DNA of 47,649 nucleotides from a virus. Lineage: Duplodnaviria; Caudoviricetes. The notes below the pieces were generated by a model, which worked only from the letters and a program-made list of their open reading frames with translations, searched no databases and was not told the origin of the DNA. A program made the position numbers and the translations under genes. This document shows, in pieces, positions 1,493 through 22,453 of the stretch (the first letter of the stretch is position 1; each line of letters opens with the position of its first letter). Location: IMG/VR virus record IMGVR_UViG_3300048080_000347, positions 1 through 47,649 of that record; one strand, 5' to 3'.

Positions 1493-1586
1493 GTGCGGAT
1501 CTCCTGTTAGTGTGACAAGTGGGTGGGCGCTCGCGTTCGCCTGAGCGCCGCGCGCCGATTTCGTTTCCCTGGTCGGCGTGTGGTGC

Positions 1587-3528: not shown

Positions 3529-4109
3529 GGACTCCCTGGGCGAAGGCTCGCGCGAAAGCGCACCTCGGCCGCGCCGACATGTGCGAGCGCCACTGCGTCA
3601 GAGGCATTGTCGCCGACCTTGCCGGCCGGAATCAGCGCGGCCGCGTTCGGGTAGATCCGCTCGACGGCCGCGCGCACCTCGTCCTTGTCGACCTTGCGCC
3701 TTGCTCCGCTGTTCGCCAAGCGCTTGATCGCCGATGGCTGAACGGTGTGGAGCGGCACCAAGAGCGAAGCCGCAACCCCATCGATCAATCCGAGGCAACG
3801 GCCTTGGGCGCACGCCGTCGTGAAGCGGTCACCGAACACGCCGAGGGCCTCGACGAAGAACGTCACGGGCTCCTCGTGCGACGGGTTACCCGTTTGGGCT
3901 CTTCGGTGTTCTGTCGCGCGCAGCTGCTCGACGAGTTCGACCAGGCACCGCGAGATAAACCCGAAGCGGTCGGCGTTGTCGTCGGAGACCATCAGGCCCT
4001 TTGCGTGGCCCTTCTCGGTGCTCCACACCCCGCAGCGCTCAAGCACCTCGTCGCGGATCACCGCCCAGCCGAAGCCTCTCACGCTGGGGTCGAGGCCCAC
4101 TGCGATCAA
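3522..4109 (-). CDS. ruvC: RuvC-like Holliday junction resolvase
   Basis: GLDPSVRGFGWAVI, FVE, P.AIK, KVDKDEV and DNASDAVALA; TTG start overlaps the upstream stop. Confidence 0.85.
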   Translation of the reverse strand: MIAVGLDPSVRGFGWAVIRDEVLERCGVWSTEKGHAKGLMVSDDNADRFGFISRCLVELVEQLRATEHRRAQTGNPSHEEPVTFFVEALGVFGDRFTTACAQGRCLGLIDGVAASLLVPLHTVQPSAIKRLANSGARRKVDKDEVRAAVERIYPNAAALIPAGKVGDNASDAVALAHVGAAEVRFRASLRPGSPW

Positions 4110-4399
4110 GATTTCACCTCGCGGAACTTCCTCGCCGCGGTGAACTTGAGCTTGCGCTGGGCTGGCACCTCGACCCAGACGCCGCGCACAGTCCTCGAGC
4201 GCCGCGGCGCGTGCGTGACGTAGCGGAACGTTCCGATCGGCAGCCGCACCGCGTGCTTCCGCGCGAGCACCTCGATCTGCTCGAGGAACGCGTGGAGCAA
4301 GAGCCGCGCGGCCGGCTCGGTGAAGAGCCCAAGTCGCCGAGCCCGCTTCGTCTCCGCGAGCGTCGCTGCGAGCAGTTGGTCGAAGTGTCGCGCCATCAT
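4106..4399 (-). CDS. HU/IHF-like histone-like DNA-binding protein
   Basis: 97 aa; VRLPIGTF...PRRSR...VPAQRKLKFTAARKFRE matches the HU/IHF arm and C-terminal pattern. Confidence 0.75.
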   Translation of the reverse strand: MMARHFDQLLAATLAETKRARRLGLFTEPAARLLLHAFLEQIEVLARKHAVRLPIGTFRYVTHAPRRSRTVRGVWVEVPAQRKLKFTAARKFREVKS

Positions 4400-7476: not shown

Positions 7477-7584
7477 ACGCCCTCCGCAAAAACAGCCCCC
7501 GCGCGGCCTGGACGCCGCGGCGGGGTTCGCCGGTGCCTTGGCAAAAGTGGTGGAGATCGTTCCGGGTCCAGCCGGTGCGCGCGC

Positions 7585-7614
7585 AAGATGCCGTAGCCGA
7601 CGGGCAGAAGTCAA
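7585..7614 (-). promoter_or_regulatory. Possible sigma70-type promoter for the replication operon
   Basis: Minus strand TTGACT-N18-CATCTT in the divergent intergenic region. Confidence 0.3.
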
Positions 7615-7786
7615 GCGTCGCGGCTCGAGCAACGACGGACTCGCGCTTGTCGCCCCTTCGTGCTACCACCCGCGCGTCGCTCGGGTTCTCAGCCGATCGT
7701 TTTCCAACCCTGTGCGCGCCTTCGGGCTCGCCTCGCCGCGCCGCTGCCTGAGAACAGCGCGCGGCGGCAGTTTGGAGGAGACCAGC

Positions 7787-8089: not shown

Positions 8090-8493
8090 GCCGCGAGCCG
8101 AAGCCGGTGGAGCCGCGCGCCGCGATCGAAAAGCCAGGCGAGAAGCACCCGGCCATGTCGGCCGCGCTGGCATTGGCTCAAGACAAGCTCAAGGTGACCG
8201 AAGCGGCCACCGCGCTCCGGGTTGCGACCGCGGCGATCGAGAAGCTCGAGGGGGAGCGCACCGGACTCAGGCGCCACCTCGAGCAGTTGGAGAGCGATCT
8301 CCGCACCGGGATGGCGCGGGCCGATCGCGAGCGCAACGTGCTGGCCCACGAGCTCGCGGCCAGCGAAGAGCGGAGCGCGGCGCTGGCGAAGCGGCTCGAG
8401 GTGCTCGAGACGAACCCGCCGCGCCTGCTCGGGCGGGTCGAGGCAATCGAGGCGCTGATCGAACTGCGCCCGTCGAAGTCGGCGAAGGCCTGA
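8086..8493 (+). CDS. Coiled-coil hypothetical protein
   Basis: Heptad-rich 135 aa; GTGA overlap. Confidence 0.7.
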   Translation: MSREPKPVEPRAAIEKPGEKHPAMSAALALAQDKLKVTEAATALRVATAAIEKLEGERTGLRRHLEQLESDLRTGMARADRERNVLAHELAASEERSAALAKRLEVLETNPPRLLGRVEAIEALIELRPSKSAKA

Positions 8494-8494
8494 C

Positions 8495-9331: not shown

Positions 9332-9359
9332 AGCAAACGCAAAACAGGGAGACGAACCG

Positions 9360-10193: not shown

Positions 10194-10194
10194 T

Positions 10195-10440
10195 CTACGC
10201 GGCCCGGCGCGCGCGATCGGCCGGCACGTTCGCGCGCACCACGGCTTCGGCGCACTCGGGGCAGACCGAATTACCCACGAGCCGGTGTCGCGTGTTCGGG
10301 TGGTTCGCCTTGTGGACGGCGAGCGCGATCGGATCGTGGTTGATCGCGACGTCGATCGGCTTGCCCGTCGCGGCCTCGACTCCCACCGATGCGCCGCCAC
10401 CACCGGCGAAGAGATCGACGTCGATCGGCTTGAGCCTCAC
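10195..10440 (-). pseudogene. Internally deleted C5-cytosine DNA methyltransferase (81-aa in-frame mini-protein)
   Basis: Motif I DLFAGGGG...AINHD...H..NHP joined directly to motif X GNSVCP..AEAVVRAN; no PC or ENV catalytic motifs. Confidence 0.8.
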
Positions 10441-11192
10441 GGGCCACCGCCGAACGGGCCGCCGTCGGTCACCTTGTCGAACGCTCCGGCGCCGAACACC
10501 TTGTCGAACGCTTCGGCCGACCACTTCGGGATGCGCGAACGCGCTTCGGCCTTCCGATGCGCTCGCCGGCTCTTCTCTTCGGCTTCTTCGTCGCAGGTCG
10601 GCGAGCAGGAGATCGATCCGTCCGGGGCGCGGATCCCAATGTCCGACGGGTAGAGGTGCTCGCCGCACTGCCCGCACTGGATCTCTACGACAGGAGGCGC
10701 GATCTCGACCTCGCGCGTATCCGGGTCCGGCCACGGTTCCCACTTCGCCTCGATCTCGTCGAGCCCGCGCTCCATGATGCCAGCGAGCGCGCGCACCCGC
10801 GCCGACTCGAGCGCCTCGACCCGGCGCGCCGCGTCCCGTTCGGCTTCGTCCTCCGCGATCTGATCTGAGAGCATCGCCGCGGCTTCGTCGGTGAGCCGGC
10901 CGCGCGTCCGGATCGCGGCGGTCAGTTGGCTCGCCGGGATCTCAATCGCGGCGGCGCGGTACGCGGCGAGCACGGCGATCCCGCGCGCGGTCAGCCTCAA
11001 CACCCCGTCGCGGCCATGAGCCCGCCGGGTGCCGATCGCGAGCCCGGCCTTGAGGCACCGTCGAAGGTGCGGCAAGTCCGTTGCCGGGAATCGGTTGGCA
11101 GTGGAGGTCCGGCCCACCGGGAAAATTTGGGCCAGGACCCAGATGTTCGGGTCGGTGGGCGTGCCTTTGCGCGGTCGGTTCGGATTCTTCAA
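10437..11192 (-). CDS. Hypothetical protein with C-terminal Zn-binding motif
   Basis: GGGAGG RBS, TTG overlapping the upstream stop; CGQCG...CSPTC; AFDKV repeated twice. Confidence 0.6.
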   Translation of the reverse strand: MKNPNRPRKGTPTDPNIWVLAQIFPVGRTSTANRFPATDLPHLRRCLKAGLAIGTRRAHGRDGVLRLTARGIAVLAAYRAAAIEIPASQLTAAIRTRGRLTDEAAAMLSDQIAEDEAERDAARRVEALESARVRALAGIMERGLDEIEAKWEPWPDPDTREVEIAPPVVEIQCGQCGEHLYPSDIGIRAPDGSISCSPTCDEEAEEKSRRAHRKAEARSRIPKWSAEAFDKVFGAGAFDKVTDGGPFGGGP

Positions 11193-11590
11193 GTGGCCTC
11201 CCAGTCGACCGCAGGCCTGAGAGCGAGCGCGACGAGAGAGGCAGCCTCGCGCGTCGGCACTGCGCAGATCTCTTCGGTGCTGCCGTGCCAGCCGACGCGG
11301 ACACTCCACCACGAGCCCACCGGCACCACCGAGGCGCGGGCGAAATAGCTGGGCTGGCGCGGCTCGCTGTCCCGCAGCGTCCGGGCGATGCCGCGCACCA
11401 CCTGGCCGACCCGCCACGCGGACTCGCGGTGCCAGCGGTTGTCCACCGCCACCTCAATTCCGCTGTCCTCGAGGTCGCCAGCCTCGAGGCCCAGCGCCGC
11501 CGCGTGGTCCCGGCACCACAGCCACGCGATGGTGAGGGCGAGTCCGCCCTCAGGCGTCTCGGCCCAGCGGTAGCGCGAGTAGGGAGGCAC
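11189..11590 (-). CDS. Hypothetical protein
   Basis: 133 aa, coupled with neighbours. Confidence 0.6.
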   Translation of the reverse strand: MPPYSRYRWAETPEGGLALTIAWLWCRDHAAALGLEAGDLEDSGIEVAVDNRWHRESAWRVGQVVRGIARTLRDSEPRQPSYFARASVVPVGSWWSVRVGWHGSTEEICAVPTREAASLVALALRPAVDWEAT

Positions 11591-11593
11591 GGG

Positions 11594-11821
11594 CTAGTAG
11601 CTCTCCGCGCGCGCCCAGAGCGCCTCACCCTCAGGAGCGTCAAGCGGCTCGACGCCAAGCACCTCCTCGTGGCGCCCGTTGGAGTTCACGTGCCGGCGCT
11701 GCCAGTAGCCTGTGCGCGTGCGCCGCACCTCGTGGAGCACCACGCCGCCCGCCGCCCGCTGGTCCTGTCCGCCGCCGGTGTATCCGCTGATCGCATAGGT
11801 GCTCCACGTGGTCCGATTCAT
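11594..11821 (-). CDS. Hypothetical protein, first gene of the leftward early operon
   Basis: AAGGAG RBS before ATG at 11821; 75 aa. Confidence 0.65.
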   Translation of the reverse strand: MNRTTWSTYAISGYTGGGQDQRAAGGVVLHEVRRTRTGYWQRRHVNSNGRHEEVLGVEPLDAPEGEALWARAESY

Positions 11822-11924
11822 TTGCTGCTCCTTTGGTGCCGCGCCCAGGAGCGAGCGCGGTGCTGCATGGTGCCGGGTAGCGCCCGGCAGTCGCGCTGTA
11901 TGGCCCGCCCGCGAATTGATAGAT

Positions 11925-11940
11925 AGCACGCGATGTGCCA
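11925..11940 (-). promoter_or_regulatory. Leftward sigma54 (-24/-12) promoter
   Basis: TGGCACATCGCGTGCT = GG-N10-GC, close to the TGGCAC-N5-TTGCW consensus. Confidence 0.7.
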
Positions 11941-11977
11941 GCGGCCGGGACGGGTGTCGCGGCCGGGCGCCATGTGA

Positions 11978-11990
11978 TATCAGCCGATTA
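11978..11990 (+). promoter_or_regulatory. IHF-consensus site
   Basis: TATCAGCCGATTA matches WATCARNNNNTTR exactly. Confidence 0.6.
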
Positions 11991-12170
11991 CGTCAGCGCG
12001 CAAACAGGGTGCGCCCGGCCATTCGCGCGCTATCGACCGATATTAGGCCGGCGATTGACACGAATGTCCGAACCGTAATCGACCGATATCACTCGAAACC
12101 GTGATCCGGGTGTCGCGGCGTCGCGACCGATTTGTCAGGGGAACACGGGCCGGCGGCGAACCGTGGCCCG

Positions 12171-12183
12171 CAATCGGCTGATA
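12171..12183 (-). promoter_or_regulatory. IHF-consensus site
   Basis: Minus strand TATCAGCCGATTG matches WATCARNNNNTTR; about -44 to -56 relative to the rightward sigma54 promoter. Confidence 0.6.
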
Positions 12184-12200
12184 TCACCAGCCGGGGCCGC

Positions 12201-12216
12201 TGGCATATCGCGTGCT
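12201..12216 (+). promoter_or_regulatory. Rightward sigma54 (-24/-12) promoter
   Basis: TGGCATATCGCGTGCT = GG(12202-3)-N10-GC(12214-5). Confidence 0.7.
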
Positions 12217-12229
12217 ATCTATCTATTCC

Positions 12230-12298
12230 ATGAACGCGACCCCGAAGAGCCCGAAGATCCAGACCCTCACTGCCCGGGATCGTAGCTTGGAGGAGTAG
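12230..12298 (+). CDS. Possible 22-aa near-leaderless peptide MNATPKSPKIQTLTARDRSLEE
   Basis: ATG about 3 nt after the predicted sigma54 start; the stop is followed immediately by the repeated hairpin element. Confidence 0.35.
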   Translation: MNATPKSPKIQTLTARDRSLEE

Positions 12299-12301
12299 CA
12301 G

Positions 12302-12377
12302 CACCAGCGCCCCGGCCCCTCACGGACCGGGCGGGGCGCCCTGAAGTAAACCCGCAGCCAGGAGAATCCCATGAGCA
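12302..12377 (+). repeat. Repeated intergenic hairpin/leader element, copy 1
   Basis: CACCAGCGCCCCGG...GGCGGGGCGCCCTG...ACCCGC...GGAGAA..CCATGAGCA; second copy at 12744-12823. Confidence 0.8.
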
Positions 12378-12736
12378 CTCAGACCGCCCCCGCCCCCGCC
12401 CCCGCCACCGTGCAGGTGTCGTGGATTTCCGCTGGCCTCCCGCCGCCGGAGAGCCTCCTCGACCTGGTGATGCAGGGCGGGGTCGGCATCCTCACTGCCG
12501 CTCACGCGAGCAGCAGCTACGGGCTCCCTGTCGTGGTGGTCGTCTGGGCCCCGGGCCGTGCGCCTGGGTCCGCACTCGGCCCCGCCGAGGTGGGCGCGCT
12601 CCGGGCCTCGCAGCTCAATCCCGACATAGATGACGGTGGCCCGGCCGAGCTGCCGCTGTCCGCCGCCCAACTCGCGCTCGTCGAGGCCGCGCGCCGCGCT
12701 GGGTACGATGTCGACGTGATTCCGCCGCGCCGCTGA
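12371..12736 (+). CDS. Hypothetical protein (SSYGxPV motif)
   Basis: AGGAG RBS; 121 aa. Confidence 0.7.
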   Translation: MSTQTAPAPAPATVQVSWISAGLPPPESLLDLVMQGGVGILTAAHASSSYGLPVVVVVWAPGRAPGSALGPAEVGALRASQLNPDIDDGGPAELPLSAAQLALVEAARRAGYDVDVIPPRR

Positions 12737-12743
12737 GCCTCAC

Positions 12744-12823
12744 CACCAGCGCCCCGGATCCCGCGCAAGGAACCGGCGGGGCGCCCTGTTCCACCCGCCA
12801 CACCCGGAGAAAAACCATGAGCA
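12744..12823 (+). repeat. Repeated intergenic hairpin/leader element, copy 2
   Basis: Two 14-bp blocks identical to copy 1, with the same RBS and ATGAGCA start context. Confidence 0.8.
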
Positions 12824-13044
12824 TTCGCAATCCGAAATTTTCGCGGCACACCAACGGAGAGGCGGCCGCCCATGCCGCGGTGGCCGCCCATGCCGCGGCG
12901 CTGGTGCCCGGGACACGAGTCGTCAGCACGCGAGGAGTCACGGGGACCATCCTCGGAGAGGGGCCGGGACTCGAGGTGCGGCTCGAGGGCGACGACGGCC
13001 TGCGGTGGTCGATCGATTTGCGCGACCTCGAGGCGTCGCCGTGA
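12817..13044 (+). CDS. Hypothetical protein (possible SH3-like barrel)
   Basis: GGAG RBS; PGTRV....GVTGTI...VRL.....W...DL pattern. Confidence 0.65.
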   Translation: MSIRNPKFSRHTNGEAAAHAAVAAHAAALVPGTRVVSTRGVTGTILGEGPGLEVRLEGDDGLRWSIDLRDLEASP

Positions 13045-13071
13045 GCCGCAACGAATCGACAAGGTGCTGAG

Positions 13072-13494
13072 GTGATCCTCTTCTTTGGCTGCCGGAACGA
13101 ATCCAAGGGGCACTACCTCTTCGATCGGCGCATGGACACTCCGCGCTACCCTGATCCCGAGGGCCACGGGTTCCTCCAAGGGTTCAGAATCATCCCGTGG
13201 AACGTGAACATCGACAGCGGACTTGCCCCGCGCACGAGCAGCAAGTCCGAAGCACCGAACGGCGTCGCCGGCTTCCACCAGAACGTGGCGTGGGTGGGCG
13301 CACCGGGCGAGGTTGTCTGGAGCGCGCTCGCGTGGTGGGACAACTCGGTAGACACGAGGCCCGGCTCCAACTGCGCGTTCCTTGTTGACCGGCGTTGTAC
13401 ACCTGCCGAGTTGCTCGCCGAGGCACGCGCCGCCTTCCCGCAAATCTTCGCGCGCTTCAAGTACGAGGTGGTGCTGCCCGGAGGTAGGTTGTGA
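13072..13494 (+). CDS. Hypothetical phage protein
   Basis: GAGG RBS; FFGC...GHYL...WSALAWWDNSVDTRPGSN.AF pattern. Confidence 0.7.
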   Translation: MILFFGCRNESKGHYLFDRRMDTPRYPDPEGHGFLQGFRIIPWNVNIDSGLAPRTSSKSEAPNGVAGFHQNVAWVGAPGEVVWSALAWWDNSVDTRPGSNCAFLVDRRCTPAELLAEARAAFPQIFARFKYEVVLPGGRL

Positions 13495-13943
13495 CGCGCG
13501 GCGATATCGAATCCAGAGCGCTCATTTATCTGCTCGAGATCATGCGCGAGTTCCAAGTCTCTCACGGAGTTGTCGAGCTGCAGCGTCACGACCTCCCTCT
13601 GGCAATCGCCCTCCTTCGCATTCAGAGGTTTGACGAGGCGATCTTCAACTTCCAGACGCCCCCCAACCCATCGTCATCCGCTGGCTCGCTCCTGACGCGC
13701 CTCGAGCGACTCGAGGCCGAACTCAACTCGTCGAAGGCCCTCATCCAGGTCGCAGAGGACAGGCTCCGAGAAGTCGGCCTCTCGTTCGAGTCGCTCGCCC
13801 ACCTCGAGAACGCCCAACTGAAGGAGCGTCTCGGCAAGATTGAGCGGGGCGAATGGGCGCCCAAGACCTTCACCACCACCGCCAGCACCATGGCGAAGGC
13901 TCTCATCCCATTGGCGAGCGACGAAACGGAGAAGCAGGTATGA
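13491..13943 (+). CDS. Hypothetical coiled-coil protein
   Basis: 150 aa, coupled overlaps. Confidence 0.65.
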   Translation: MTRGDIESRALIYLLEIMREFQVSHGVVELQRHDLPLAIALLRIQRFDEAIFNFQTPPNPSSSAGSLLTRLERLEAELNSSKALIQVAEDRLREVGLSFESLAHLENAQLKERLGKIERGEWAPKTFTTTASTMAKALIPLASDETEKQV

Positions 13944-14113
13944 GCCTCGAATCCGATCAGATGCTCCGTCGCACCGGCATCACTGCGCGCGAGGCAGTCG
14001 CCCTGGCCGGCCTCAACCCGTGGGCCTCGCTGACCGCCATCTACGACGCGAAGGTGCTCGACAAGCCGTTGCAGCTCGAGCCCCGCGTCGACCACCAGGT
14101 GCTCCGGGCTTGA
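13940..14113 (+). pseudogene. Truncated YqaJ-like (lambda exonuclease family) gene remnant
   Basis: RRTGITARE.VALAGLNPWAS...IY..K resembles the YqaJ N-terminus; ends after 57 aa with no PD-(D/E)XK core. Confidence 0.6.
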
Positions 14114-14203
14114 GGCCGCGCGCTGGCTCACCCTCAACGGCCACGACCTGCCCGCCGAACTCGAGGCGCTCGCCGAGTCCGTGACCGAGTAGCCCAGCAG
14201 GGT

Positions 14204-14252
14204 CGGGCTCGAGAGTCGAGCCCGTGCCCCGCCCGCCCGAATTCTCGGGCGG
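14204..14252. promoter_or_regulatory. Two tandem perfect hairpins/palindromes
   Basis: CGGGCTCGA-gag-TCGAGCCCG (14204-14224) and CCGCCCGA-attc-TCGGGCGG (14233-14252). Confidence 0.5.
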
Positions 14253-14267
14253 CAACAGGAGACCAGC

Positions 14268-14471
14268 ATGAGCAAAAAGAAGAGCGACGGGCGCAGGAAC
14301 AACGGGAAGGCGCAGCTGAAAATCAACGACGCGAAGGTGCTGGTGCGCGGGCCGGCCGCACTGATCGCAGCGGTGGCCAGCAAGGGCGCCGAGACCGGGC
14401 TCACTCAGGCGGAGTCATGGCGCGCGGCGGCGACCCTGTTCACCTCGCGGGACTTCGACGCGCCGGCCTGA
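14268..14471 (+). CDS. Putative ribbon-helix-helix DNA-binding protein
   Basis: Basic N-terminus, strand VLVRGP, helix, G-L-T turn, second helix; AGGAG RBS. Confidence 0.5.
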   Translation: MSKKKSDGRRNNGKAQLKINDAKVLVRGPAALIAAVASKGAETGLTQAESWRAAATLFTSRDFDAPA

Positions 14472-14555
14472 GCGTTCGCGGGTGCTCGCCGATGCCAGCA
14501 CGGATCGGCGGGCGGCCCGCGGTGCTTGTACCGCCACAACAGGAGCGACTAAGCG

Positions 14556-15299
14556 ATGGCGAAGAACACGACGACGAAGAACCTTGGGCGGCTGTTGGAG
14601 GCCGCGCTGCAGTTGGACACCGCGCTCGAGACGATCGAGGAGATGGGCGAGCGCGATGGTTTGGCCGGGTTGATCGGCGCGCCGCCGGAGGTGGTCCGCG
14701 AGGCGTCGCACGACTTCCGCTGCGACGTCTTGCGCGACTGCGCCGACGAACTTTGCGAGACCTTCCTGAAGATCTCTGAAGGCTCGACCCCGATGGGTGC
14801 GGCCAGGGAGTCGATCTGGGCGAAGGTGAGGACGATCCACGGTCTGCTCGGGTGGCCGGTCGACGCCATCGCCTACTCGCTCGACGTCGCCCGCGATCAC
14901 CTCGACGATCTCGCCGAGCCCAGCGCCGCGCCGGTCGACGTCAAGTTTCCGGCCGACCCGTGCCCCACCCGCATTGATTCTGAGAGCCTGATCGTCAAGC
15001 TGATCTGCCACGGCTGCCCCGACGAGAAGATCCCGGGCACAGAGAAGGATCCGCGCGGCTTCCCGGGTCTGCTGTGCGAGACCTGCGCGGCAGAAGCCCT
15101 GCTCGATCTCCGGCGCGGCGCCGCCGAACTCTGGCCCGGCTACGTCTACGAGTTCGAGGAGCCGGTCTGGATCGCGGTCGAGGGCAAGGAGTGCGGCAAT
15201 CCGCTGCCCGGCTGCGCGGAGGTCGGCTGCCCGCTGAAGCGCGAGCACGACGGGATCTGCCAGTGGCCTTCCGACGCTCGGCGCGAGGCGCGGCCGTGA
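14556..15299 (+). CDS. Hypothetical Cys-rich protein
   Basis: AGGAG RBS; CHGC, CETC and C...C...C.L...HDG.C motifs. Confidence 0.7.
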   Translation: MAKNTTTKNLGRLLEAALQLDTALETIEEMGERDGLAGLIGAPPEVVREASHDFRCDVLRDCADELCETFLKISEGSTPMGAARESIWAKVRTIHGLLGWPVDAIAYSLDVARDHLDDLAEPSAAPVDVKFPADPCPTRIDSESLIVKLICHGCPDEKIPGTEKDPRGFPGLLCETCAAEALLDLRRGAAELWPGYVYEFEEPVWIAVEGKECGNPLPGCAEVGCPLKREHDGICQWPSDARREARP

Positions 15300-15601
15300 T
15301 CGCCCCGTCCTGGGCGGAGGCCGCGGTCGAGCAGATGAAGCGCGCAACGGTCGAGGCGACGAGCAAGCCGAAGATGGCGAAGCGGACCCGCCGCGCGAAG
15401 TTCGCGGTCGACTGGAACTTCGACGGCTCGCGCGCCGCGACCCTGGTGATCAACATGGGCGCGGGCACGATCGCGGTCCGCCCGTTCCGGCGGCGCCGCT
15501 CGTACGAACTGCCGCTGGCCGACGTTGCGCTGATGATCGCTCAGCGGGTTGCGCGGGCCGACGCGAAGTCGAAGATTAAGGCGCGGGGGGCTCGCCGGTG
15601 A
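15296..15601 (+). CDS. Hypothetical basic protein
   Basis: GTGA overlap; VRPFRRRRSYELPL. Confidence 0.6.
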   Translation: MIAPSWAEAAVEQMKRATVEATSKPKMAKRTRRAKFAVDWNFDGSRAATLVINMGAGTIAVRPFRRRRSYELPLADVALMIAQRVARADAKSKIKARGARR

Positions 15602-15783
15602 CTCCGCTCTTCGTCGCCCGATGCAACACCTGCGGCACCAGTTACACCGCCGAGCGCTGGGCGGCCCTCGAACTCAAGGGCGAGCAGAAGGTCGAGGCCG
15701 ACGAGACCGGCCCGGCTGAGACCCTCGAACTTCGCAACTGCGGTTGCGGCTCGACTCTCGCGATCCCTCTTGCGCCGAAGTGA
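15598..15783 (+). CDS. Small Zn-ribbon protein
   Basis: CNTCG...W..L...ELRNCGCGSTL. Confidence 0.65.
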   Translation: MTPLFVARCNTCGTSYTAERWAALELKGEQKVEADETGPAETLELRNCGCGSTLAIPLAPK

Positions 15784-15827
15784 CCAGCCGACGTAGACGT
15801 GCACCTCGCAACAGGGAGACGGACCCG

Positions 15828-16088
15828 ATGAATTCAGAGAAGAGCACCCCGGGCGCGGCGCGCTCGATCCGATCCGCGGTTGAAACCGTCGTCGTCACAG
15901 ATCGAGGCATCCAGTACGAGGTCACGCGATCGAGGCGCTCGATCGCTTGCACGGCCCGGATCGCGCCGCTGAAAGAGCGGCGCGTCCGCGCGTGCGGTCG
16001 CCCGGCCGTCGGTGAGCGGGTCGACGGCGAGCCGCGCTGCCCGCTGCATCTGAAGAATGCGAAGCGCTGGCCGAAGGTGGCGCGGTGA
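15828..16088 (+). CDS. Hypothetical protein
   Basis: GGGAG RBS; C...CGRPA...C..H. Confidence 0.55.
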   Translation: MNSEKSTPGAARSIRSAVETVVVTDRGIQYEVTRSRRSIACTARIAPLKERRVRACGRPAVGERVDGEPRCPLHLKNAKRWPKVAR

Positions 16089-16303
16089 AGACGTTTCCAA
16101 GTCGAGACCCCCAGCCCGGTCGCATTCCGAGTGGTCCAAAGATCTCCCCGATCGTCTTGTGGGTGCTCCGCCAGCGCGAGCCGTTTGAAACGATCGACGT
16201 CGAGGGGCGCTACGGATCGCGCGCACGCCTTGCCCTCGCGCGCCTGGTGCGCGCCGGCATCCTCCGCCGGCTTGCCCCGGGCCGCTACGAGGTGGCGCGG
16301 TGA
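16085..16303 (+). CDS. Small winged-helix DNA-binding protein
   Basis: LARLVRAGILRRLAPGRY wHTH-like pattern; coupled overlaps. Confidence 0.5.
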   Translation: MKTFPSRDPQPGRIPSGPKISPIVLWVLRQREPFETIDVEGRYGSRARLALARLVRAGILRRLAPGRYEVAR

Positions 16304-16749
16304 AGGCGCTCACCCTGATCCGCCCCTGGGCCGAGTTCGTGATCGACGGCGACAAGCCGATCGAGAACCGGACATGGGCGCCACCCGAATCCCTGCTCGG
16401 CGAGCGGTTTGCGATCCACGCCGGACAGGGGTGGGATCCGAAAGGCGTGCTGTGGATTCGGAAGCTGCTCGGCGTCGGCGTTGCCGATCCGGATCCGGCC
16501 GATCATCACCAGGGCATCGTCGGGACCGTGCGCCTGATCGGGTGGTGCTCAGCCGACGGGAGGCTGCTTCAGGTCTATGGCGGGAAGTTCCTCGCGCAAT
16601 TGATTGGGCCGGCCGAGCGTGCCGCGCTCTTCGGGCCGGTTGGCTGGATCTTGCGCGAGCCGCGCGCGCTCGCGAAGCCGGTCCCGTGCCGCGGGCATCA
16701 GAGGCTCTGGAACGTGCCGCACCACTTGCTCAGCCAGGTGGCCCCGTGA
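16300..16749 (+). CDS. ASCH domain protein
   Basis: MKALTLIRPWA...GDKPIENRTW...IHAG...GIVG...W.L...P.PCRG.Q.LW. Confidence 0.85.
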   Translation: MKALTLIRPWAEFVIDGDKPIENRTWAPPESLLGERFAIHAGQGWDPKGVLWIRKLLGVGVADPDPADHHQGIVGTVRLIGWCSADGRLLQVYGGKFLAQLIGPAERAALFGPVGWILREPRALAKPVPCRGHQRLWNVPHHLLSQVAP

Positions 16750-16961
16750 CGGTGGAGCAGATCACCAAAGAGCGGAAGCGCGACGCGTGCCGCGGGTGCG
16801 GGCGCGAAGTCACGCACGTCCAGGTGGTTGAGTTCGTCGGCCCGCAGCGCTTCAAGTCCTACCGTTGGGTTCCCGTCGCGCATCGGCGCGGCGATGGGGC
16901 GCCCTGTTCCCACCTCGCCGATCTCAGGAACGAACTATGGACGCGACACGCCCAGTGCTGA
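16746..16961 (+). CDS. Hypothetical Zn-binding protein
   Basis: GTGA overlap; CRGCG...H......C. Confidence 0.5.
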   Translation: MTVEQITKERKRDACRGCGREVTHVQVVEFVGPQRFKSYRWVPVAHRRGDGAPCSHLADLRNELWTRHAQC

Positions 16962-18913
16962 CCCCGCCGAACTTTGCCGAGCAGCTGTCGGCGATGGGAG
17001 GCGGGCCGACCCCGGGTGAGCAATCCGCGCTTGCCGAACGGAACGAAGCGCGGGCCGACGCGGTGCCGGCGCCGAGCACCTGGGCGCGGAAGATCCCGAC
17101 GGCGCAGTTGATCGAGTCGAGCACCAACCCGCGCAGGCGGTGGAAGCACCTCGACGAGCTCGGGGAGTCGATTCTCACGGCCGGTGTGCTCGAGGCGCTG
17201 GTGGTGCGGCCACTCCCGCCCGGCTCGACCGCGGGCCGCGAGCAGACGGGCGTCGAGTGGTTCGAGATCATCTGCGGGGCGCGTCGGTTCCGCGCCGGCA
17301 AGGCGGTCGGGCTCACCGAGTTCCCGTGCGACGTCCGCCAGGTGAGCGACGATCACGTCCGCGAATTCCAGATCATCGAGAACATCCAGCGCGAGGGACT
17401 CCACCCGATGGAAGAGGCTGAGGGCTACGAGGCGCTGATGGAGACCGGCTACACGGTCGAGGTGCTCGCGAAGCGGGTGGGCAAGTCCACCGGCTGGATC
17501 TACCTCCGCCTGCAGCTGCTCAAGCTGGGGCCCGAGGCCCGGGGCGCCTACTTCGATGACAAGTTCCACGTGTCCGTCGCTCAAGTACTCGGGCGACAGA
17601 CGCACGCGAGCCAGGCGGCGGCCCTGCCCAGGCTCGAGCAGCTGGCGACGGCCCGCGAGCAAATCGAGTTCCTTCAGAATGAGCACGCGAAGAACCTCAA
17701 GGGCGCGCCGTTCGACTTGAAGGACGGCACCCTTCCGCGCCTGGGCCAGACGCCGGGGTTCGGCGACTGCCACGGCTGCCCGAAGAATTCAAACAACGCG
17801 CCCCGAGAGCTCTTCGTCGACTACTCGAAGATCGAGCGCGTGGGCGTCTGCTCTGACGTCGAGTGCTTCGCCGGCAAGTGCGCCACGGTGGTGGAGCGCC
17901 AGGCCGAGAAGGCTCGGGGCCGCGGCGAGAAGGTGCTCACCGCGGCCGAGACGAAGAGGGTCATCAGCTACGGGGCCCCGGTGTCGGGCTCGCCCTACGT
18001 CAACTCGCTCGACGTGCTGAGCGACGATCCGAAGCGCCGCACCTGGGCTCAGCTGCTCGAGAAGCTTCCGGCCGGCGAGCGCCCCGAGGTGGTGCTCGCT
18101 CCGAACGATCAGAAGCCCGGCGAAATGTTCCGGCTCTACGAGCGCAAGGCGGCGATCTCCGCGGCGGCGAAGGTGGGCGCCAGCTGGGCGAAGAAGCAGG
18201 AGCCCGAAGAGAAGATGGTGGAGCGCTCGAAGAAGAAGCGGCGCGAGGCCGATGACAAGGCGCGGCTGGTGGCGGAGGTGACCCGGCTCGCGATGCCGAA
18301 GCTGATCAAGCGCTGGCGGGACAAGACGGCGCTGCCGGAGCTTCGCGCGCTGGCCAACGCCAGCCTCGACAGCTTGGGCGCCGGGGAACTGGCGGTCGAG
18401 GTGCTCGAGTGGTTCGGAGTTAGGACGCCGGGCTTCGCGGTGAAGGGTGCCGAGAAGGCGCTCGAGGGCTTCAGCGGACGGGACTTGCTGGCCTTCGTGC
18501 TCGTCAGCACGCTCTTCCCGCGGTGGGACGAAGAGCAGGCCGGCGTTGGCGAGTTCGACGCGGAGTTCTCGGCGTTCGCGAAGGGCGCGGGGGTCGACCT
18601 CAAGGCGATGATCCGGGCTCAACTCGAGGCGTCGCGCGCAGCTGAGGCGCAAGAGAAGCGCGCGAGCCAGGTGGCGATCATCTGGACGAAGGGCGAGGTT
18701 GGTACGACCGGCGCTGGCGGGCTCGAAGGCAAGGGGCCACAGGGGCGCGCCTACAGCGTGAGCTACAACGGCGGCGGCTACTTCGCCAAGTGGCACACGA
18801 AGAAGTCGAAGGGCGGCGAGGCGGTCAAGACGGTCGAGGCCGGGCGCGCGCGGTGCGAGGAGATCGAGGCCAGCTTCCATCCGGTCGCCGCGGCGAAGGC
18901 GGTGCGGTCGTGA
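16937..18913 (+). CDS. parB: Large ParB/RepB/Spo0J-family protein
   Basis: NPRR, ELGESI...GVLE.LVVRP, EIICGARRFRA, IENIQRE.LHPMEEAEGY, HTH and a CHGC...C...C motif; 658 aa. Confidence 0.85.
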   Translation: MDATRPVLTPPNFAEQLSAMGGGPTPGEQSALAERNEARADAVPAPSTWARKIPTAQLIESSTNPRRRWKHLDELGESILTAGVLEALVVRPLPPGSTAGREQTGVEWFEIICGARRFRAGKAVGLTEFPCDVRQVSDDHVREFQIIENIQREGLHPMEEAEGYEALMETGYTVEVLAKRVGKSTGWIYLRLQLLKLGPEARGAYFDDKFHVSVAQVLGRQTHASQAAALPRLEQLATAREQIEFLQNEHAKNLKGAPFDLKDGTLPRLGQTPGFGDCHGCPKNSNNAPRELFVDYSKIERVGVCSDVECFAGKCATVVERQAEKARGRGEKVLTAAETKRVISYGAPVSGSPYVNSLDVLSDDPKRRTWAQLLEKLPAGERPEVVLAPNDQKPGEMFRLYERKAAISAAAKVGASWAKKQEPEEKMVERSKKKRREADDKARLVAEVTRLAMPKLIKRWRDKTALPELRALANASLDSLGAGELAVEVLEWFGVRTPGFAVKGAEKALEGFSGRDLLAFVLVSTLFPRWDEEQAGVGEFDAEFSAFAKGAGVDLKAMIRAQLEASRAAEAQEKRASQVAIIWTKGEVGTTGAGGLEGKGPQGRAYSVSYNGGGYFAKWHTKKSKGGEAVKTVEAGRARCEEIEASFHPVAAAKAVRS

Positions 18914-19221
18914 GCCCCACCACTCTGTTGCCGTGGGTTTCACTCGGTGCACCGTCAGCGCGGCTGGTGCGCGGAGGGTATGTCGGCCCGGCCGGCGGTG
19001 TGGCGATCTTTGCGAGCCCAGCGGATGCCGACTTCGCGGCGCTGGCTGCGAACTCCCACGCGGACTTGGTGACGGCGCTGGTGGAAATCGAAAGGATCGC
19101 GTGTCGCTCGGCGGCCAGCGGCCGCCACCCCGAAGACGAGCCAGAGCCCGCCAACCGCGACGGCGAGGAGCTGGCCACGATCGCCCGCGCAGCCCTCGCG
19201 AAGGCTCGAGGTGGCCAATGA
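18910..19221 (+). CDS. Hypothetical phage protein
   Basis: ADADFAALAAN...LV.AL...ARAALAKARG tail typical of small phage proteins; coupled overlaps. Confidence 0.65.
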   Translation: MSPTTLLPWVSLGAPSARLVRGGYVGPAGGVAIFASPADADFAALAANSHADLVTALVEIERIACRSAASGRHPEDEPEPANRDGEELATIARAALAKARGGQ

Positions 19222-20519
19222 ACGGCGCCGAGGGACGGGGCGGGCGTATCGTTCGGCTCGAGGTCGAGGGCGTGAAGCGGGTCACCGCGGTCACGCTGGA
19301 GATCGACCCGAAGACTTCGCTCGTGAAGGTCCGCGGGCGCAACGGCGAGGGCAAGAGTTCGACGATCGACACGATCATGTACATCCTCGGCGGCAAGCGG
19401 ACGCACCCGCCGAAGGTGATCCACGAGGGCCTCGAGCATGCGCGCGGGCTGATCGAAACCACCGGGCAACTGATCGCCGAGCGGCGGTGGACGAAGAACG
19501 ACGCCGGGCAAGAGGTGAGCGTCGTAGAGGTGCGCTCTACCGACGGGCAGAAGTTCCGCGGCCCGCAGGCGATCCTCGACGCGCTGTGCGGGCCCGAGAC
19601 GTTCGACCCGGACCACTTCCTCAAGAGCGATCCGAAGGCCCAACTCGATGTGCTCCGCCGCGTGGTGGGGATCGATTTCTCGCAACTCGACGGGCGGCGC
19701 CTGAAGTTCTACGACGACCGCACCGCGGCCAACCGTGAACTCGCCCAGCTGAAAGCCCGGCTCGTTTCGATGCCGGACGAATCCGGCAAGCTCGAGCGGG
19801 TCGACGTTGCGGCGCTCCTCGAGCAGGAGAAGGGCTACCAGGCGTCGGCGACGCGCCGGGCGAGCCTCGAGGGGGCCGCGACGGCGGCGAAGGTTGCACG
19901 GGTGGCGCTCGAGGTCTCGGTGCGCGAGGCGGAGACGGTGTGGCGGAACGCGCTGGCGAAGCTCGGCGTCGCGAAGTCGGGCGAGGCCGAAGTCGCGAAA
20001 GCGCTCGAGGTTCAGCCGGCGCTCGACGAAGCGGCGCGGGCTCAAGTGCTGTCGAAGATCGCCAACGGTTCGGATCTCAATCTCCGCGCCGCGAAGCAAG
20101 AGGAGCGTGGCCACTTGGCGCTAAAGGTGAGCAACGCCGAGGCGCTCGTGAAGAAGCTCGACGCCTCGATCGCGGCGATCGACGACGAGAAGCAGAAGAC
20201 CGTGGCCGCGGTGAAGTTTCCCGTCGAGGGCTTGGGCTTCGGGGAGCACGGCCCGTCGTTCAAGGGCTTCCCCCTCGAGCAGGCCAGCGACGCCGAGCGG
20301 ATTCGGGTCGCCGTGGGGATCGGCCTCGCGATGCACTCCGAACTTCGGGTGTTGCGCGTGCGCAACGGCTCGCTGCTCGACGATCGGAGCCTCGCCCTGC
20401 TCGACCAGGCCGTCACCGAGCTCGACGGCCAGTGCTTCGTGGAGGTGGTCGGGACTGAGGGCGACGGATTCCTGATCGAGGACGGCGCGCTCAAATCCGT
20501 CAACGGAAGCCCTCCATGA
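19218..20519 (+). CDS. SMC/Rad50-like AAA ATPase
   Basis: Walker A GRNGEGKSS, long coiled coil, C-terminal QASDAE...GSLLD. Confidence 0.8.
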   Translation: MNGAEGRGGRIVRLEVEGVKRVTAVTLEIDPKTSLVKVRGRNGEGKSSTIDTIMYILGGKRTHPPKVIHEGLEHARGLIETTGQLIAERRWTKNDAGQEVSVVEVRSTDGQKFRGPQAILDALCGPETFDPDHFLKSDPKAQLDVLRRVVGIDFSQLDGRRLKFYDDRTAANRELAQLKARLVSMPDESGKLERVDVAALLEQEKGYQASATRRASLEGAATAAKVARVALEVSVREAETVWRNALAKLGVAKSGEAEVAKALEVQPALDEAARAQVLSKIANGSDLNLRAAKQEERGHLALKVSNAEALVKKLDASIAAIDDEKQKTVAAVKFPVEGLGFGEHGPSFKGFPLEQASDAERIRVAVGIGLAMHSELRVLRVRNGSLLDDRSLALLDQAVTELDGQCFVEVVGTEGDGFLIEDGALKSVNGSPP

Positions 20520-20785
20520 GAGGCGCGGCCTGCTCGACCTGTAAGGCGCTGATCGTCTGGGCCGCCACCGAGAAGGGCAGCGCGATTCCTGTGGATGCGA
20601 AGCCGGTGGCGAACGGGAACCTCGACCTGGTGGCCCAGAACGATCCACGCGAAGCGCCGATCGCCTTCATGCTCGACAAGCACGGCGAGCGGCTGATCGG
20701 CCCAGGGGTGAAGCACTCGCCGATGCTCCGCTACCAATCCCACTTTTCCAGCTGCCCCCAAGCCGACCAGCACCGGAAAGGCTGA
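20516..20785 (+). CDS. Phage Zn-binding hypothetical protein
   Basis: CSTC.A.IVW..T..G..IPVD...SHF.SCP.A..HRK. Confidence 0.7.
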   Translation: MRGAACSTCKALIVWAATEKGSAIPVDAKPVANGNLDLVAQNDPREAPIAFMLDKHGERLIGPGVKHSPMLRYQSHFSSCPQADQHRKG

Positions 20786-20789
20786 GCCA

Positions 20790-20957
20790 ATGGAAGACGA
20801 GAACCCGGAAGAGGTCGCTGCTCGAATCCGTCGCGCGCAGCTGCTCACCTGTCCCTGCTGCTTGCTCAAATGGGCGACCGTCGGGCAAGCGCGGCTTCAC
20901 CTTTCGATCATGATCGAGAGAATCAAGGCGAAGGACAGGGAGCTTTCGAGGTCGTGA
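20790..20957 (+). CDS. Small hypothetical protein (55 aa, CPCC...H)
   Basis: Fills the gap between genes; its stop overlaps the methylase GTG; below the ORF-track size cutoff. Confidence 0.5.
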   Translation: MEDENPEEVAARIRRAQLLTCPCCLLKWATVGQARLHLSIMIERIKAKDRELSRS

Positions 20958-21679
20958 AGCTTTGCGCCTGGTGCCACCTTCGCCCGTGCGCGCCACGGCA
21001 GAAGTATTGCCGCCGGCGTTGCCGACAGGCGGCGTACCGGGTGCGGAAGCTGCGCGGGCTCGGGCCGTCGTTCGGGCCCGGGCTCGAGCCCGGGGCGCTC
21101 TTCGCCTACGCGGACCCTCCCTACGTCGGCCTCTCGGCGCGCTTCTACCGCGACGAGCCGAGCTTCAACGGCGAGGTCGATCACCGCCAACTGCTCGCCG
21201 ATCTCGAGCGCGCGGGTTACGCCGGCTGGGCGCTCAGCTGCAGCGTCAAGTCGCTCCGGGTGCTTCTGCCGATGTGCCCCGCGGGCGTGCGCGTGTGCGC
21301 CTGGGTCAAGCCGATCGGTGTGCCACCTGCCACGTTCGGGATCCACGGCACCTGGGAGGCCGTCGTTGTCCGCGGCGGGCGACAGTGCCGGCCTGGAGTC
21401 CGCGACTGGCTCAGCGCGCAGCCGGCCCGGCTCGGAGGAGAGCTACCGGGCCGCAAGCCGATCGCGTTCTGCGCCTGGCTCTTCGATCTGCTCGGGATGG
21501 TGCCGGGCGATCTGCTCGCGGATCTGTTCCCAGGCTCTGGCGCGGTCGGCCAGGCATGGGAGGAACTGTCGCGCGGAGCTGAGCACCGTGCGGGCGACAA
21601 GCGCCGGCTCTTCCTTCCGTCGCGCGTGGAGGAGCGCGTTACCGCCTTCTCAGCATCGCCTCGACGGCGAAGCGTTTGA
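20954..21679 (+). CDS. Amino-DNA methyltransferase (beta-order) with N-terminal Zn finger
   Basis: CAWC...YC...CRQAAYR, AYADPPY, WVKP, KP..F and DLFPGSG. Confidence 0.8.
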   Translation: MKLCAWCHLRPCAPRQKYCRRRCRQAAYRVRKLRGLGPSFGPGLEPGALFAYADPPYVGLSARFYRDEPSFNGEVDHRQLLADLERAGYAGWALSCSVKSLRVLLPMCPAGVRVCAWVKPIGVPPATFGIHGTWEAVVVRGGRQCRPGVRDWLSAQPARLGGELPGRKPIAFCAWLFDLLGMVPGDLLADLFPGSGAVGQAWEELSRGAEHRAGDKRRLFLPSRVEERVTAFSASPRRRSV

Positions 21680-22043
21680 GTCGCGCCGAAGGTGGTTCGA
21701 ATTTGGTCTTCGCGACGAAGCCGAAGATCGTGGCTTGCGCTACTGGCGCAACTGCTTCCACCGAAACAGCCGCCCCGATGGTCACGTTGCAGGAGGACCA
21801 AGCGACCGCAGTGGTGCTGACGGCGTGCGTACCTCTGGCCGAACTGGCCGCCACCGGCGCCGCGACCTTGATCGCCGCGTGCACTGGCTTGAGTTCGAGG
21901 GTTGTTGTCGCAGAGAGAAGGGCGCCAACGCCAATGGCGGCCTCGAAGGCGGGGCTCGCTACAAGGGACTCCGCTGCGATTGTCACGGCGACGCCATGGG
22001 CGGCGCTCACGAGGGCAACCGCGGTCGGAGCGAGCGCGCTCAC
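21639..22043 (-). CDS. Ala/Val/Thr-rich putative structural protein
   Basis: Last gene of the late operon; beta-rich composition; overlaps the convergent methylase by 41 bp. Confidence 0.5.
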   Translation of the reverse strand: MSALAPTAVALVSAAHGVAVTIAAESLVASPAFEAAIGVGALLSATTTLELKPVHAAIKVAAPVAASSARGTHAVSTTAVAWSSCNVTIGAAVSVEAVAPVAQATIFGFVAKTKFEPPSARLKRFAVEAMLRRR

Positions 22044-22051
22044 GTCGTCGT

Positions 22052-22453
22052 TTATGCGCCGCCTTCGGTGAAGGACCAATCGTTGATTTGAACAGGGCCA
22101 CCGATCACTAGCGCGATCGTGTTGAGATTCATGTCGGCGCCAGAGGCTCCCACGCTGCCCTGGATCACGCAGGTAGTACCGTCAGCCAGGTAGACCCGCC
22201 AGTAGCCAGCGATCCCGGTGGCAAGCACATTCGCATTCGCGGGAAGAGCCGGCGACTGGACGCCAGCCACAGCGGCGGGGGCGAACGGTGAGCCGAGCAC
22301 TTGCTCTGACAGCTTCGTGCCGCTCGCGGCAGTCGCGCAGTCTACCGGCACTGCGCCCGTGTAGATCCTGAGCAGCCCAGCGTTTCCAACGATCGCTGCG
22401 ATCCCTGCATCGGCGCGTGCGTTTCTCGCTTCCACTGAATACTGGAGACTCAT
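22052..22453 (-). CDS. Putative virion structural protein
   Basis: ARNARAD...LLRIYTG.VP...TG.AGYWR...VIQGSVG..GAD pattern seen in phage tail-associated proteins. Confidence 0.65.
   Translation of the reverse strand: MSLQYSVEARNARADAGIAAIVGNAGLLRIYTGAVPVDCATAASGTKLSEQVLGSPFAPAAVAGVQSPALPANANVLATGIAGYWRVYLADGTTCVIQGSVGASGADMNLNTIALVIGGPVQINDWSFTEGGA

What the first reader, a model, noticed from the sequence alone, without database searches (positions are those of the whole stretch)
11914..12227. Mirror-symmetric switch with two sigma54 promoters and IHF sites driving both early operons
Seen: a 29-bp inverted repeat (11918-11946 / 12195-12223) in which each arm is a GG-N10-GC element (TGGCACATCGCGTGCT leftward, TGGCATATCGCGTGCT rightward). 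Inside it, a perfect 16-bp inverted repeat has arms matching the IHF consensus WATCARNNNNTTR (11978-11990 +, 12171-12183 -). Two weaker copies of that motif lie at 12030-12042 and 12076-12088. There is also a 13-bp direct repeat CGGGTGTCGCGGC (11951, 12107) and a palindrome GTCGCG-N4-CGCGAC (12112-12127), both candidate enhancer sites. Established: sigma54 promoters need a bacterial enhancer-binding protein (bEBP) and often IHF bending. Inference: this region sits where a lambdoid cI/cro switch would be expected, yet I recognise no repressor and no bEBP in the genome. Early transcription may therefore be gated by a host bEBP through one shared central enhancer, linking infection to host physiological state.
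Basis: partly seen in the sequence, partly recalled or inferred. Interest (0 to 1): 0.85.

Follow-up and report, generated by a model that had tools for sequence, protein, structure and literature searches.

The report
Back-to-back sigma-54 promoters in a phage
An uncultured phage carries two outward-facing copies of a sigma-54-type promoter sequence, each with a matching IHF-type bending site, but no activator gene was found in its genome, so these two gene clusters likely switch on only when a host signalling protein is active, a strategy rarely reported for phages.

Summary
The repeats are real. The two arms (28 of 29 identical) are by far the best sigma-54 matches in this 47.6-kb phage (22.1 and 21.4 bits, next 8.2). 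Their IHF-consensus sites have the orientation and helical phase seen at bacterial promoters of pilin, hydrogenase and rpoN genes. No bEBP, integrase, resolvase or HTH_3 repressor was found, so the activator likely comes from the host. The best enhancer candidate is TGTCGC-N6-GCGAC at 12111-12128; a degenerate copy is exactly the 20 bp that make the left arm longer. The perfect palindrome precedes sigma-54 promoters in four bacterial genomes, once beside a kinase-bEBP pair, but is not enriched over controls. Corrections: this is not the lambdoid switch position (replication and recombination genes diverge at 7477-7786), nothing shows switching, and the phage encodes its own HU/IHF-family protein. 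A structurally related phage has five tandem sigma-54 cassettes. Host, activator and start sites are unknown. Known precedents: phage YuA; Desulfovibrio orp operons. This scan has noted similar layouts in other phages several times. Verdict: new variant of a known kind, interest 0.5.

The parts
11925..11941 (-). Left sigma-54-type -24/-12 element (GG 11939-11938, GC 11927-11926); start predicted near 11914
   Evidence: 21.4 bits
12200..12216 (+). Right sigma-54-type -24/-12 element (GG 12202-12203, GC 12214-12215); start predicted near 12227
   Evidence: 22.1 bits
11913..11956 (-). Left arm of the long inverted repeat (38 of 44 identical to the right arm)
12185..12228 (+). Right arm of the long inverted repeat
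11974..11992 (+). Box A: exact IHF consensus at 11978-11990, about -64 to -76 from the left start; also fits the dyad WATCRNNYGATW
12169..12187 (-). Box D: exact IHF consensus at 12171-12183, about -44 to -56 from the right start; also fits the dyad
12030..12042 (-). Box B: 2 mismatches to the IHF consensus, exact dyad; 64 bp (6.1 turns) from box A
12074..12092 (-). Box C: 1 mismatch to the IHF consensus, exact dyad; 95 bp (9.05 turns) from box D
12111..12128 (.). Candidate activator site, TGTCGC-N6-GCGAC(C), about -99 to -116 from the right start
11954..11973 (.). The 20 bp present only in the left arm: a degenerate copy of the candidate activator site, between box A and the left promoter
12056..12069 (.). 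Second candidate site, GAC-N6-GTC dyad; a partner at 12125-12136 overlaps the main candidate. Weak
   Evidence: 17 GAC-N6-GTC in the genome, 2 here, 0.08 expected
12230..12298 (+). 22-codon ORF whose ATG is the 15th base after the -12 C, so likely leaderless; no family
10195..11821 (-). Left gene cluster: three unknown ORFs (75, 133, 251 aa) and a truncated C5 methyltransferase; converges on the recombination operon
12371..22071 (+). Right gene cluster: many small unknown ORFs, phrog_3193, ParB-like protein, SMC-like P-loop protein; converges on the late region
4106..4399 (-). Phage-encoded HU/IHF-family protein (97 aa) in the replication operon; candidate second ligand of the boxes
   Evidence: PF00216 at 23.9 bits, cut-off 22.4; weak PDB sequence match E 0.077
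7477..7786 (.). The real replication/recombination divergence; no sigma-54 or sigma-70 consensus match found, no repressor gene found

Best explanation
The region holds two outward-facing copies of one promoter module (sigma-54-type -24/-12 element plus an in-phase IHF-consensus site) that likely work as enhancer-dependent promoters, fired by a host enhancer-binding protein because none was found in the phage. Shown in sequence: the two elements, the two IHF-consensus sites, their orientation and phase, the lack of a bEBP match, and the 20-bp asymmetry. Inferred: host sigma-54 RNA polymerase sits on both elements as closed complexes; host IHF bends the DNA at boxes A and D; a host NtrC-family response regulator bound at the central TGTCGC-N6-GCGAC site loops over and opens the promoter. 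The right promoter has textbook geometry (activator near -107, IHF near -50) and would make a nearly leaderless transcript. The left promoter would be reached from about -205, and carries a weak copy of the activator site at -41 to -58, where a bound protein would more likely dampen than activate. The result would be signal-dependent, graded co-activation of two accessory early clusters, not a lysis-lysogeny switch. Replication and recombination genes are transcribed from elsewhere.
For: Weight matrix from 38 sites in other records: arms 22.1 and 21.4 bits, next site 8.2. Scan of GTDB genomes with box-gap-promoter: 69 hits, 63 after removing 6 duplicates; 16 of 63 also meet IHF positions that the pattern did not ask for (3.7 expected, P 2e-6), and their gaps are phased (R 0.59, mean 6.2 modulo 10.5, P 0.003; the other 47: P 0.09). 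The phage's gaps, 16 and 36, give 5.5 and 4.5. Genes after such hits include pilin-type, two NiFe hydrogenase small subunits, rpoN and two PEP-CTERM proteins. No PF00158 match, control positive in 14 of 14 genomes. No sigma-70 consensus promoter in 7300-17000. A phage with 54-55% identical terminase, portal, sheath and baseplate proteins (G006) has 6 matches against 1 control, 5 of them as repeated cassettes with a start codon at +14/+15 after the C, and no bEBP match; the window's right ATG is at +15 (chance 1.3%). TGTCGC-N6-GCG.C occurs twice in the genome, both here. In genome G649 the perfect palindrome lies between two divergent sigma-54 elements next to a histidine kinase and a REC-Sigma54_activat-HTH_8 gene; 4 of 5 perfect-palindrome matches have a full TGGCACG-N4-TTGC. 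Precedents: YuA (PMC10914365, PMC5053324, passages); divergent orp operons need sigma-54, a bEBP and IHF (PMC3897727, passages).
Against: No start site, binding or RpoN dependence is measured. No close relative carries this region: 0 hits for the arm in viral contigs, none in cultured phages, so there is no conservation test of the element itself. The matrix was trained on sites fetched with patterns partly drawn from these arms, so it is partly circular; the IHF criterion was chosen after seeing the hits. The candidate enhancer plus promoter is not enriched over reversed controls: 1 of 201 genomes against 1 control, 1 of 151 against 1, 9 matches against 14; both phage copies are imperfect. 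All four boxes share a dyad and, for A, C and D, flanks beyond the IHF consensus, which IHF alone does not explain. The -12 element is GTGC, not TTGC. 49 of 50 related records show only background (9 matches against 18 controls), so the layout is not general in this phage group. The host is unknown.
Confidence: 0.68

Rival explanations
1. The four boxes are operators for one homodimeric protein, such as the phage's own HU/IHF-family protein or an unrecognised repressor, which wraps the region and shuts or opens both sigma-54 promoters. The IHF match would be secondary.
For: The dyad WATCRNNYGATW occurs 4 times in the genome, all here; boxes A, C and D agree over 17-18 of 19 bases. The phage encodes a PF00216 protein over the cut-off. 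A-B and C-D are in phase, the two pairs out of phase.
Against: The two outer boxes match the asymmetric IHF consensus exactly and sit in the phase used by bacterial promoters. The phage protein lacks the arm-tip proline in the alignment to HU (role of that proline recalled) and has no homologue found. No HTH_3 match and no regulator family among 150 further ORFs, apart from a weak AbiEi_4 match at E 0.003.
Confidence: 0.14
2. One promoter cassette was duplicated and inverted; only the right copy is an efficient promoter, and the left is a decaying or silenced copy. The mirror symmetry is a by-product.
For: G006 carries such cassettes in tandem. Only the right copy has a start codon at +15 and textbook enhancer spacing. 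The left copy has a 20-bp addition, and its cluster ends in a truncated methyltransferase.
Against: The left element is the better consensus match (2 mismatches), its IHF site is exact, the added length keeps the helical phase, and three ORFs follow with no other promoter found.
Confidence: 0.1
3. The arms are recombination sites of an invertible segment, or ends of a small mobile element.
For: 44-bp inverted arms around a 228-bp spacer with internal repeats.
Against: No tyrosine or serine recombinase match. Inversion would leave both -24/-12 elements facing outward. No further copy of the arm in the genome or in viral contigs. No target-site duplication seen by eye. The one available assembly shows the same orientation and no joint (contigs drop rare variants, and this run may be the source of the window).
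Confidence: 0.04
4. The box array is a partition site or replication origin.
For: Regularly spaced dyads (46-53 bp for A, B, C); a ParB-like gene 4.7 kb away; no integrase.
Against: The region is only 38% A+T. The rep gene has its own internal repeat tract near 7000-7075, the usual lambdoid origin position (recalled). No ParA family match. This reading leaves both sigma-54 elements unexplained.
Confidence: 0.04

Closest known systems
Desulfovibrio vulgaris orp1/orp2 divergent operons (OrpR/DVU2106, sigma-54, IHF); PMC3897727, passages read
   Same: Two divergent sigma-54 promoters, each with a WATCARNNNNTTR-type site between promoter and activator site; one bEBP co-activates both.
   Different: Chromosomal, with the bEBP gene in the locus and its own activator site for each operon (-131 and -88); here a phage, no bEBP found, near-identical arms, and a site copy at -41 to -58.
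Pseudomonas phage YuA sigma-54 promoter P015; PMC10914365 and PMC5053324, passages read (Ceyssens 2008 not read)
   Same: A phage that uses host sigma-54; described as strictly dependent on it and as rare.
   Different: One mapped sigma-54-like promoter; the passages I saw give no IHF site, enhancer or divergent pair.
E. coli glnAp2 'governor' sites and quenching by proteins bound inside the loop; PMC4740811, passages; Atkinson 2002 seen as a reference title only, details recalled
   Same: A protein site between enhancer and sigma-54 promoter that can lower output, as proposed for 11954-11973.
   Different: Measured there, only inferred here; a different activator.
Lambdoid cI/cro (PL/PR) switch (recalled)
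   Same: Divergent transcription in a phage with lambda-type head genes and a lambdoid replication block.
   Different: No repressor or integrase found, sigma-54-type not sigma-70 promoters, and it does not lie between the replication and recombination operons.

Membership tests
Sigma-54 enhancer-dependent promoter | GG-N10-GC element close to YTGGCACG-N4-TTGCW | tested here: met
   2 and 3 mismatches; 21.4 and 22.1 bits against 8.2
Sigma-54 enhancer-dependent promoter | Intergenic, pointing into genes | tested here: met
Sigma-54 enhancer-dependent promoter | Start 11-14 nt after the GC; RpoN dependence | not testable with these tools
   No RNA holder listed. Indirect only: ATG at +15, as in G006 cassettes
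Sigma-54 enhancer-dependent promoter | Upstream site of a cognate bEBP | tested here: inconclusive
   Palindrome type found at bacterial sigma-54 promoters and beside a bEBP gene, but not enriched over controls
IHF-assisted sigma-54 promoter | WATCARNNNNTTR between promoter and enhancer | tested here: met
   Exact at 11978-11990 and 12171-12183, the only 2 in the genome
IHF-assisted sigma-54 promoter | Orientation and helical phase as in bacterial promoters | tested here: met
   criterion chosen after seeing the hits
IHF-assisted sigma-54 promoter | IHF binding and requirement | not testable with these tools
   needs gel shift and an ihf mutant
Lambdoid cI/cro switch | Divergent HTH repressor and Cro genes at the junction | tested here: not met
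Lambdoid cI/cro switch | Lies between the replication and recombination operons | tested here: not met
   that junction is 7477-7786
Lambdoid cI/cro switch | Sigma-70 promoters under the operators | tested here: not met
   0 consensus matches in 7300-17000 (a strict scan)
Invertible promoter segment | Site-specific recombinase nearby | tested here: not met
   PF00589 and PF00239: 0 matches; a host enzyme is not excluded
Invertible promoter segment | Both orientations present | tested here: inconclusive
   one orientation in contigs of one run that may be the source; raw reads not available

The most novel reading that the evidence does not exclude
A phage with no repressor or integrase reads a host two-component signal as its decision device: one host bEBP site between two sigma-54 promoters turns on both accessory early clusters, the 20-bp site copy silences the left cluster when the activator is high, and the phage's own HU/IHF-family protein later occupies the four dyad boxes and remodels the loop. 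That would be an enhancer-built, dose-dependent switch in place of cI/cro.
Probability: 0.15. Interest if true: 0.8.

Novelty: new variant of a known kind. Interest (0 to 1): 0.5.

Why it matters
Sigma-54 promoters cannot fire without an ATP-driven activator, so a phage that uses them without encoding one ties part of its programme to a host signal. In the searches I ran, the only phage precedent in print was YuA, with no enhancer described in the passages seen. This 316-bp element is compact and can be tested in E. coli reporters with a promiscuous bEBP, and it names a candidate activator site. Its weight is limited: it governs accessory genes, the host is unknown, and this scan has already noted several phages with the same kind of layout.

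Tried and rejected
Close relatives: blastn of the region against cultured phages, no match; arm pattern in viral contigs, 0; exonuclease VIII 2 distant loci, DnaB 0, P-loop protein 0, ParB 18 loci at 28-37%. The capsid-profile scan covered 12 of 64 parts of the collection and kept 80 loci; I passed 28 of these 80, with 18 ParB and 2 exonuclease loci plus L107 and L139 counted among the capsid loci to make 50 records in all. Box-plus-promoter pattern in viral contigs: 12 hits, none with the window's architecture, 8 of them one repeated sequence. Promoter pattern in metagenomes: 47 loci, none shares window genes. Host: not resolved. Terminase in a sample of G002's phylum, best 42%; capsid best 35-38% in G003's phylum, 34% in the Desulfomonilaceae record's phylum, nothing at 1e-100 in G610's phylum or in the Planctomycetaceae record's phylum, and 64% over the C-terminal 291 residues in a prophage remnant from the Terriglobia record's phylum: a weak hint at Acidobacteriota, no more. 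Cluster look-up gave no names. Expression: no RNA holder listed. Atlas searches for the first right ORF and the 251-aa left ORF gave nothing usable. The single-sequence model of the HU-like protein was low in confidence (pLDDT 59) and its fold search found nothing at E 0.001. Leader hairpins at 12295-12375, 12735-12820, 11815-11914 and 16860-16940 fold no better than shuffles; 14195-14270 does (z -4.4). A PilR-type reading of the GAC-N6-GTC dyads was considered: the pilin promoters show TGACA-N5-TGTCA-type spacing, one base longer, so I did not adopt it. No paper held TGTCGC with 'enhancer binding protein' and 'palindrome'; one search listed nothing on this site; the main text of PMC4641369 lacks both half-sites, but its motifs may sit in figures or supplements that I did not see. 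A second, finer laying of contigs on the region was not obtained, so rare joints remain untested.

Full report
Setting. The window is a whole virus record of 47,649 bases, classed linear and 100% complete, about 67% G+C, held in one sediment-metagenome run that may be its source. Family scans of 69 ORFs give a lambda-type terminase and portal, a Mu-like contractile tail, a replication block (initiator, DnaB, RuvC-like, Dam-like), exonuclease VIII, a ParB-like and an SMC-like protein. Six-frame searches found no PF00158 bEBP, PF00589 integrase, PF01381 HTH_3 or PF00239 resolvase, with controls positive in 14, 14, 14 and 12 of 14 genomes. A further 150 of 152 ORFs outside annotated genes gave no regulator over a cut-off; the two left out lie in the tail-fibre region. 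That scan did reveal an HU/IHF-family protein at 4106-4399, which passes the PF00216 cut-off when read from its own start.

Observation. The arms are 28 of 29 identical, with a chance expectation near 1e-7. The two exact IHF-consensus matches of the genome are the arms of the 16-bp repeat. All four boxes fit the dyad WATCRNNYGATW, found 4 times in the genome and only here. The symmetry is broken by 20 bp: 33 nt between box and promoter on the left, 13 on the right.

Are the arms sigma-54 promoters? By plain consensus the left arm is the best site in the genome and the right is one of ten next-best. A matrix from 38 sites in other records scores them 21.4 and 22.1 bits against 8.2 for the next site; the training sites were fetched with patterns partly drawn from these arms and include some chance matches, so this is not fully independent. 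No sigma-70 consensus promoter was found in 7300-17000. The right element has an ATG as the 15th base after the C. Record G006, 54-55% identical in terminase, portal, sheath and baseplate J, has 6 matches against 1 control; 5 of the 6 have a start codon at +14 or +15 (one opens only 9 codons), as do 4 of 4 in a metagenome contig, but 0 of 4 in L201. The chance rate is 1.3%. The other 49 records were at background (9 matches, 18 controls).

Are the outer boxes IHF sites? I scanned 185,579 species genomes for box, 10-40 nt gap, promoter: 69 hits, 63 after dropping 6 duplicates. Sixteen of 63 also met three IHF positions not asked for (3.7 expected, P 2e-6); their gaps cluster at 16-17, 27-29 and 37-39 (R 0.59, P 0.003), the other 47 less so (P 0.09). 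Of 11 downstream proteins scanned, a pilin-type protein, two hydrogenase small subunits, RpoN and two PEP-CTERM proteins stand out; that such genes are often sigma-54-dependent is recalled. The phage's gaps of 16 and 36 fall in the same phase and orientation. I chose the IHF criterion after reading the hits.

Which enhancer? The 13-bp direct repeat is the start of an 18-bp dyad, TGTCGC-N6-GCGACA. The central copy (12111-12128) differs at one position and lies about 107 bp before the right start, beyond the IHF site. The other copy differs at one inner position and makes up the 20 bp found only on the left, between box A and the promoter. With a promoter downstream this dyad was found in 1 of 201 and 1 of 151 genomes, each with 1 control match, and 9 times against 14 controls in 91 genomes of one order: no enrichment. 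But 4 of the 5 perfect-palindrome matches there carry a full TGGCACG-N4-TTGC, and in G649 one palindrome lies between two divergent elements beside a kinase and a REC-Sigma54_activat-HTH_8 gene. So the motif can be a bEBP site in GC-rich bacteria; that it is one here is inferred. A weaker candidate is the GAC-N6-GTC pair at 12057 and 12125, which lie 11.8 and 6.9 turns from the left and right promoters.

What is controlled? The left transcript would cover three unknown ORFs and a methyltransferase remnant and meets the recombination operon head-on near 10195. The right would cover a 22-codon ORF, many small unknown genes and, if read through, the ParB-like and SMC-like genes. Replication and recombination genes diverge at 7477-7786, where the best sigma-54 score is 5.2 bits.

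Mechanism. Most likely (0.68): host sigma-54 holoenzyme waits on both elements, host IHF bends boxes A and D, and a host response-regulator bEBP at the central site opens the right promoter and, less well, the left; the site copy at -41 to -58 would damp the left side. Proteins bound between enhancer and promoter can lower output in a phase-dependent way (PMC4740811, passages), and IHF sites make looping depend on IHF (PMC2709558, abstract). Rivals: operators for a homodimer such as the phage's HU/IHF-family protein (0.14), a duplicated cassette with one working copy (0.10), an invertible or mobile segment (0.04; one orientation and no joint), a partition site or origin (0.04).

Comparison. 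It works like the Desulfovibrio orp1/orp2 pair, where sigma-54, one bEBP and IHF co-activate divergent operons (PMC3897727, passages). Phage use of sigma-54 is called rare but known from YuA (PMC5053324 and PMC10914365, passages; the 2008 YuA paper not read). Searches listed no paper on a phage with a full enhancer-IHF-sigma-54 layout or a divergent pair; the library lacks most subscription papers. Searches did not name the candidate site; supplements were not read. Earlier notes of this scan describe similar layouts in other phages, among them a divergent pair; they are unchecked, and I count them as a sign that this recurs, not as support. One (e1-5898862) prompted the search for the site in bacterial genomes.

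Verdict. Observation confirmed; interpretation partly supported. New variant of a known kind; interest 0.5. Host, activator and start sites remain open.

Noticed in passing
window 4106-4399 (-): Divergent HU/IHF-family gene between dnaB and ruvC; passes the PF00216 cut-off, lacks the arm-tip proline in the HU alignment, no homologue found.
   Followed up: partly
window 10195-10437 (-): C5 methyltransferase remnant: the N-terminal motif runs almost directly into a C-terminal motif, as after an internal deletion.
   Followed up: no
window 9784-9872 and 43614-43668: Two inverted matches (28 nt at 96%, 32 nt at 84%) between the recombination-region gene and the terminase/portal junction, 34 kb apart; unexplained.
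   Followed up: no
window 12299-12343, 12741-12788, about 16895-16915: A repeated intergenic motif ending in GGGGCGCCCTG precedes three genes of the right cluster; three of these stretches do not fold better than shuffles, but 14195-14270 does (z -4.4).
   Followed up: partly
G006:C1:5882-13057 (IMGVR_UViG_3300037424_001249; L188, L190): Five tandem sigma-54 cassettes with a shared bipartite upstream box (GCACCCAC ... TGACCC type), an IHF-like element one base shorter than the consensus in three of them, and start codons at +14/+15; no bEBP match in the record.
   Followed up: partly
L201 (IMGVR_UViG_3300033145_000192, 177 kb) 730-3020: Four sigma-54 matches with repeated TGAGAC/GTCTCA half-sites upstream; no bEBP match in the record.
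   Followed up: partly
L220 and L227 (Ga0209172_10000449, 114 kb): Four sigma-54-type elements, each with ATG at +14/+15, directly behind the previous gene with no evident enhancer; not shown to be a phage.
   Followed up: partly
G649:C94:23970-24140 (L287, L301): Bacterial locus with one perfect TGTCGC-N6-GCGACA palindrome between two divergent sigma-54 elements, next to a histidine kinase and a bEBP gene.
   Followed up: yes
window 7000-7075: Tract of short CCTCGAT/CCTTGAT-type repeats inside the replication initiator gene; likely origin iterons.
   Followed up: no
whole window: Lambda-type terminase and portal with a Mu-like contractile tail, three methyltransferase genes, a ParB-like gene but no integrase, resolvase or ParA match: lifestyle unclear.
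   Followed up: partly
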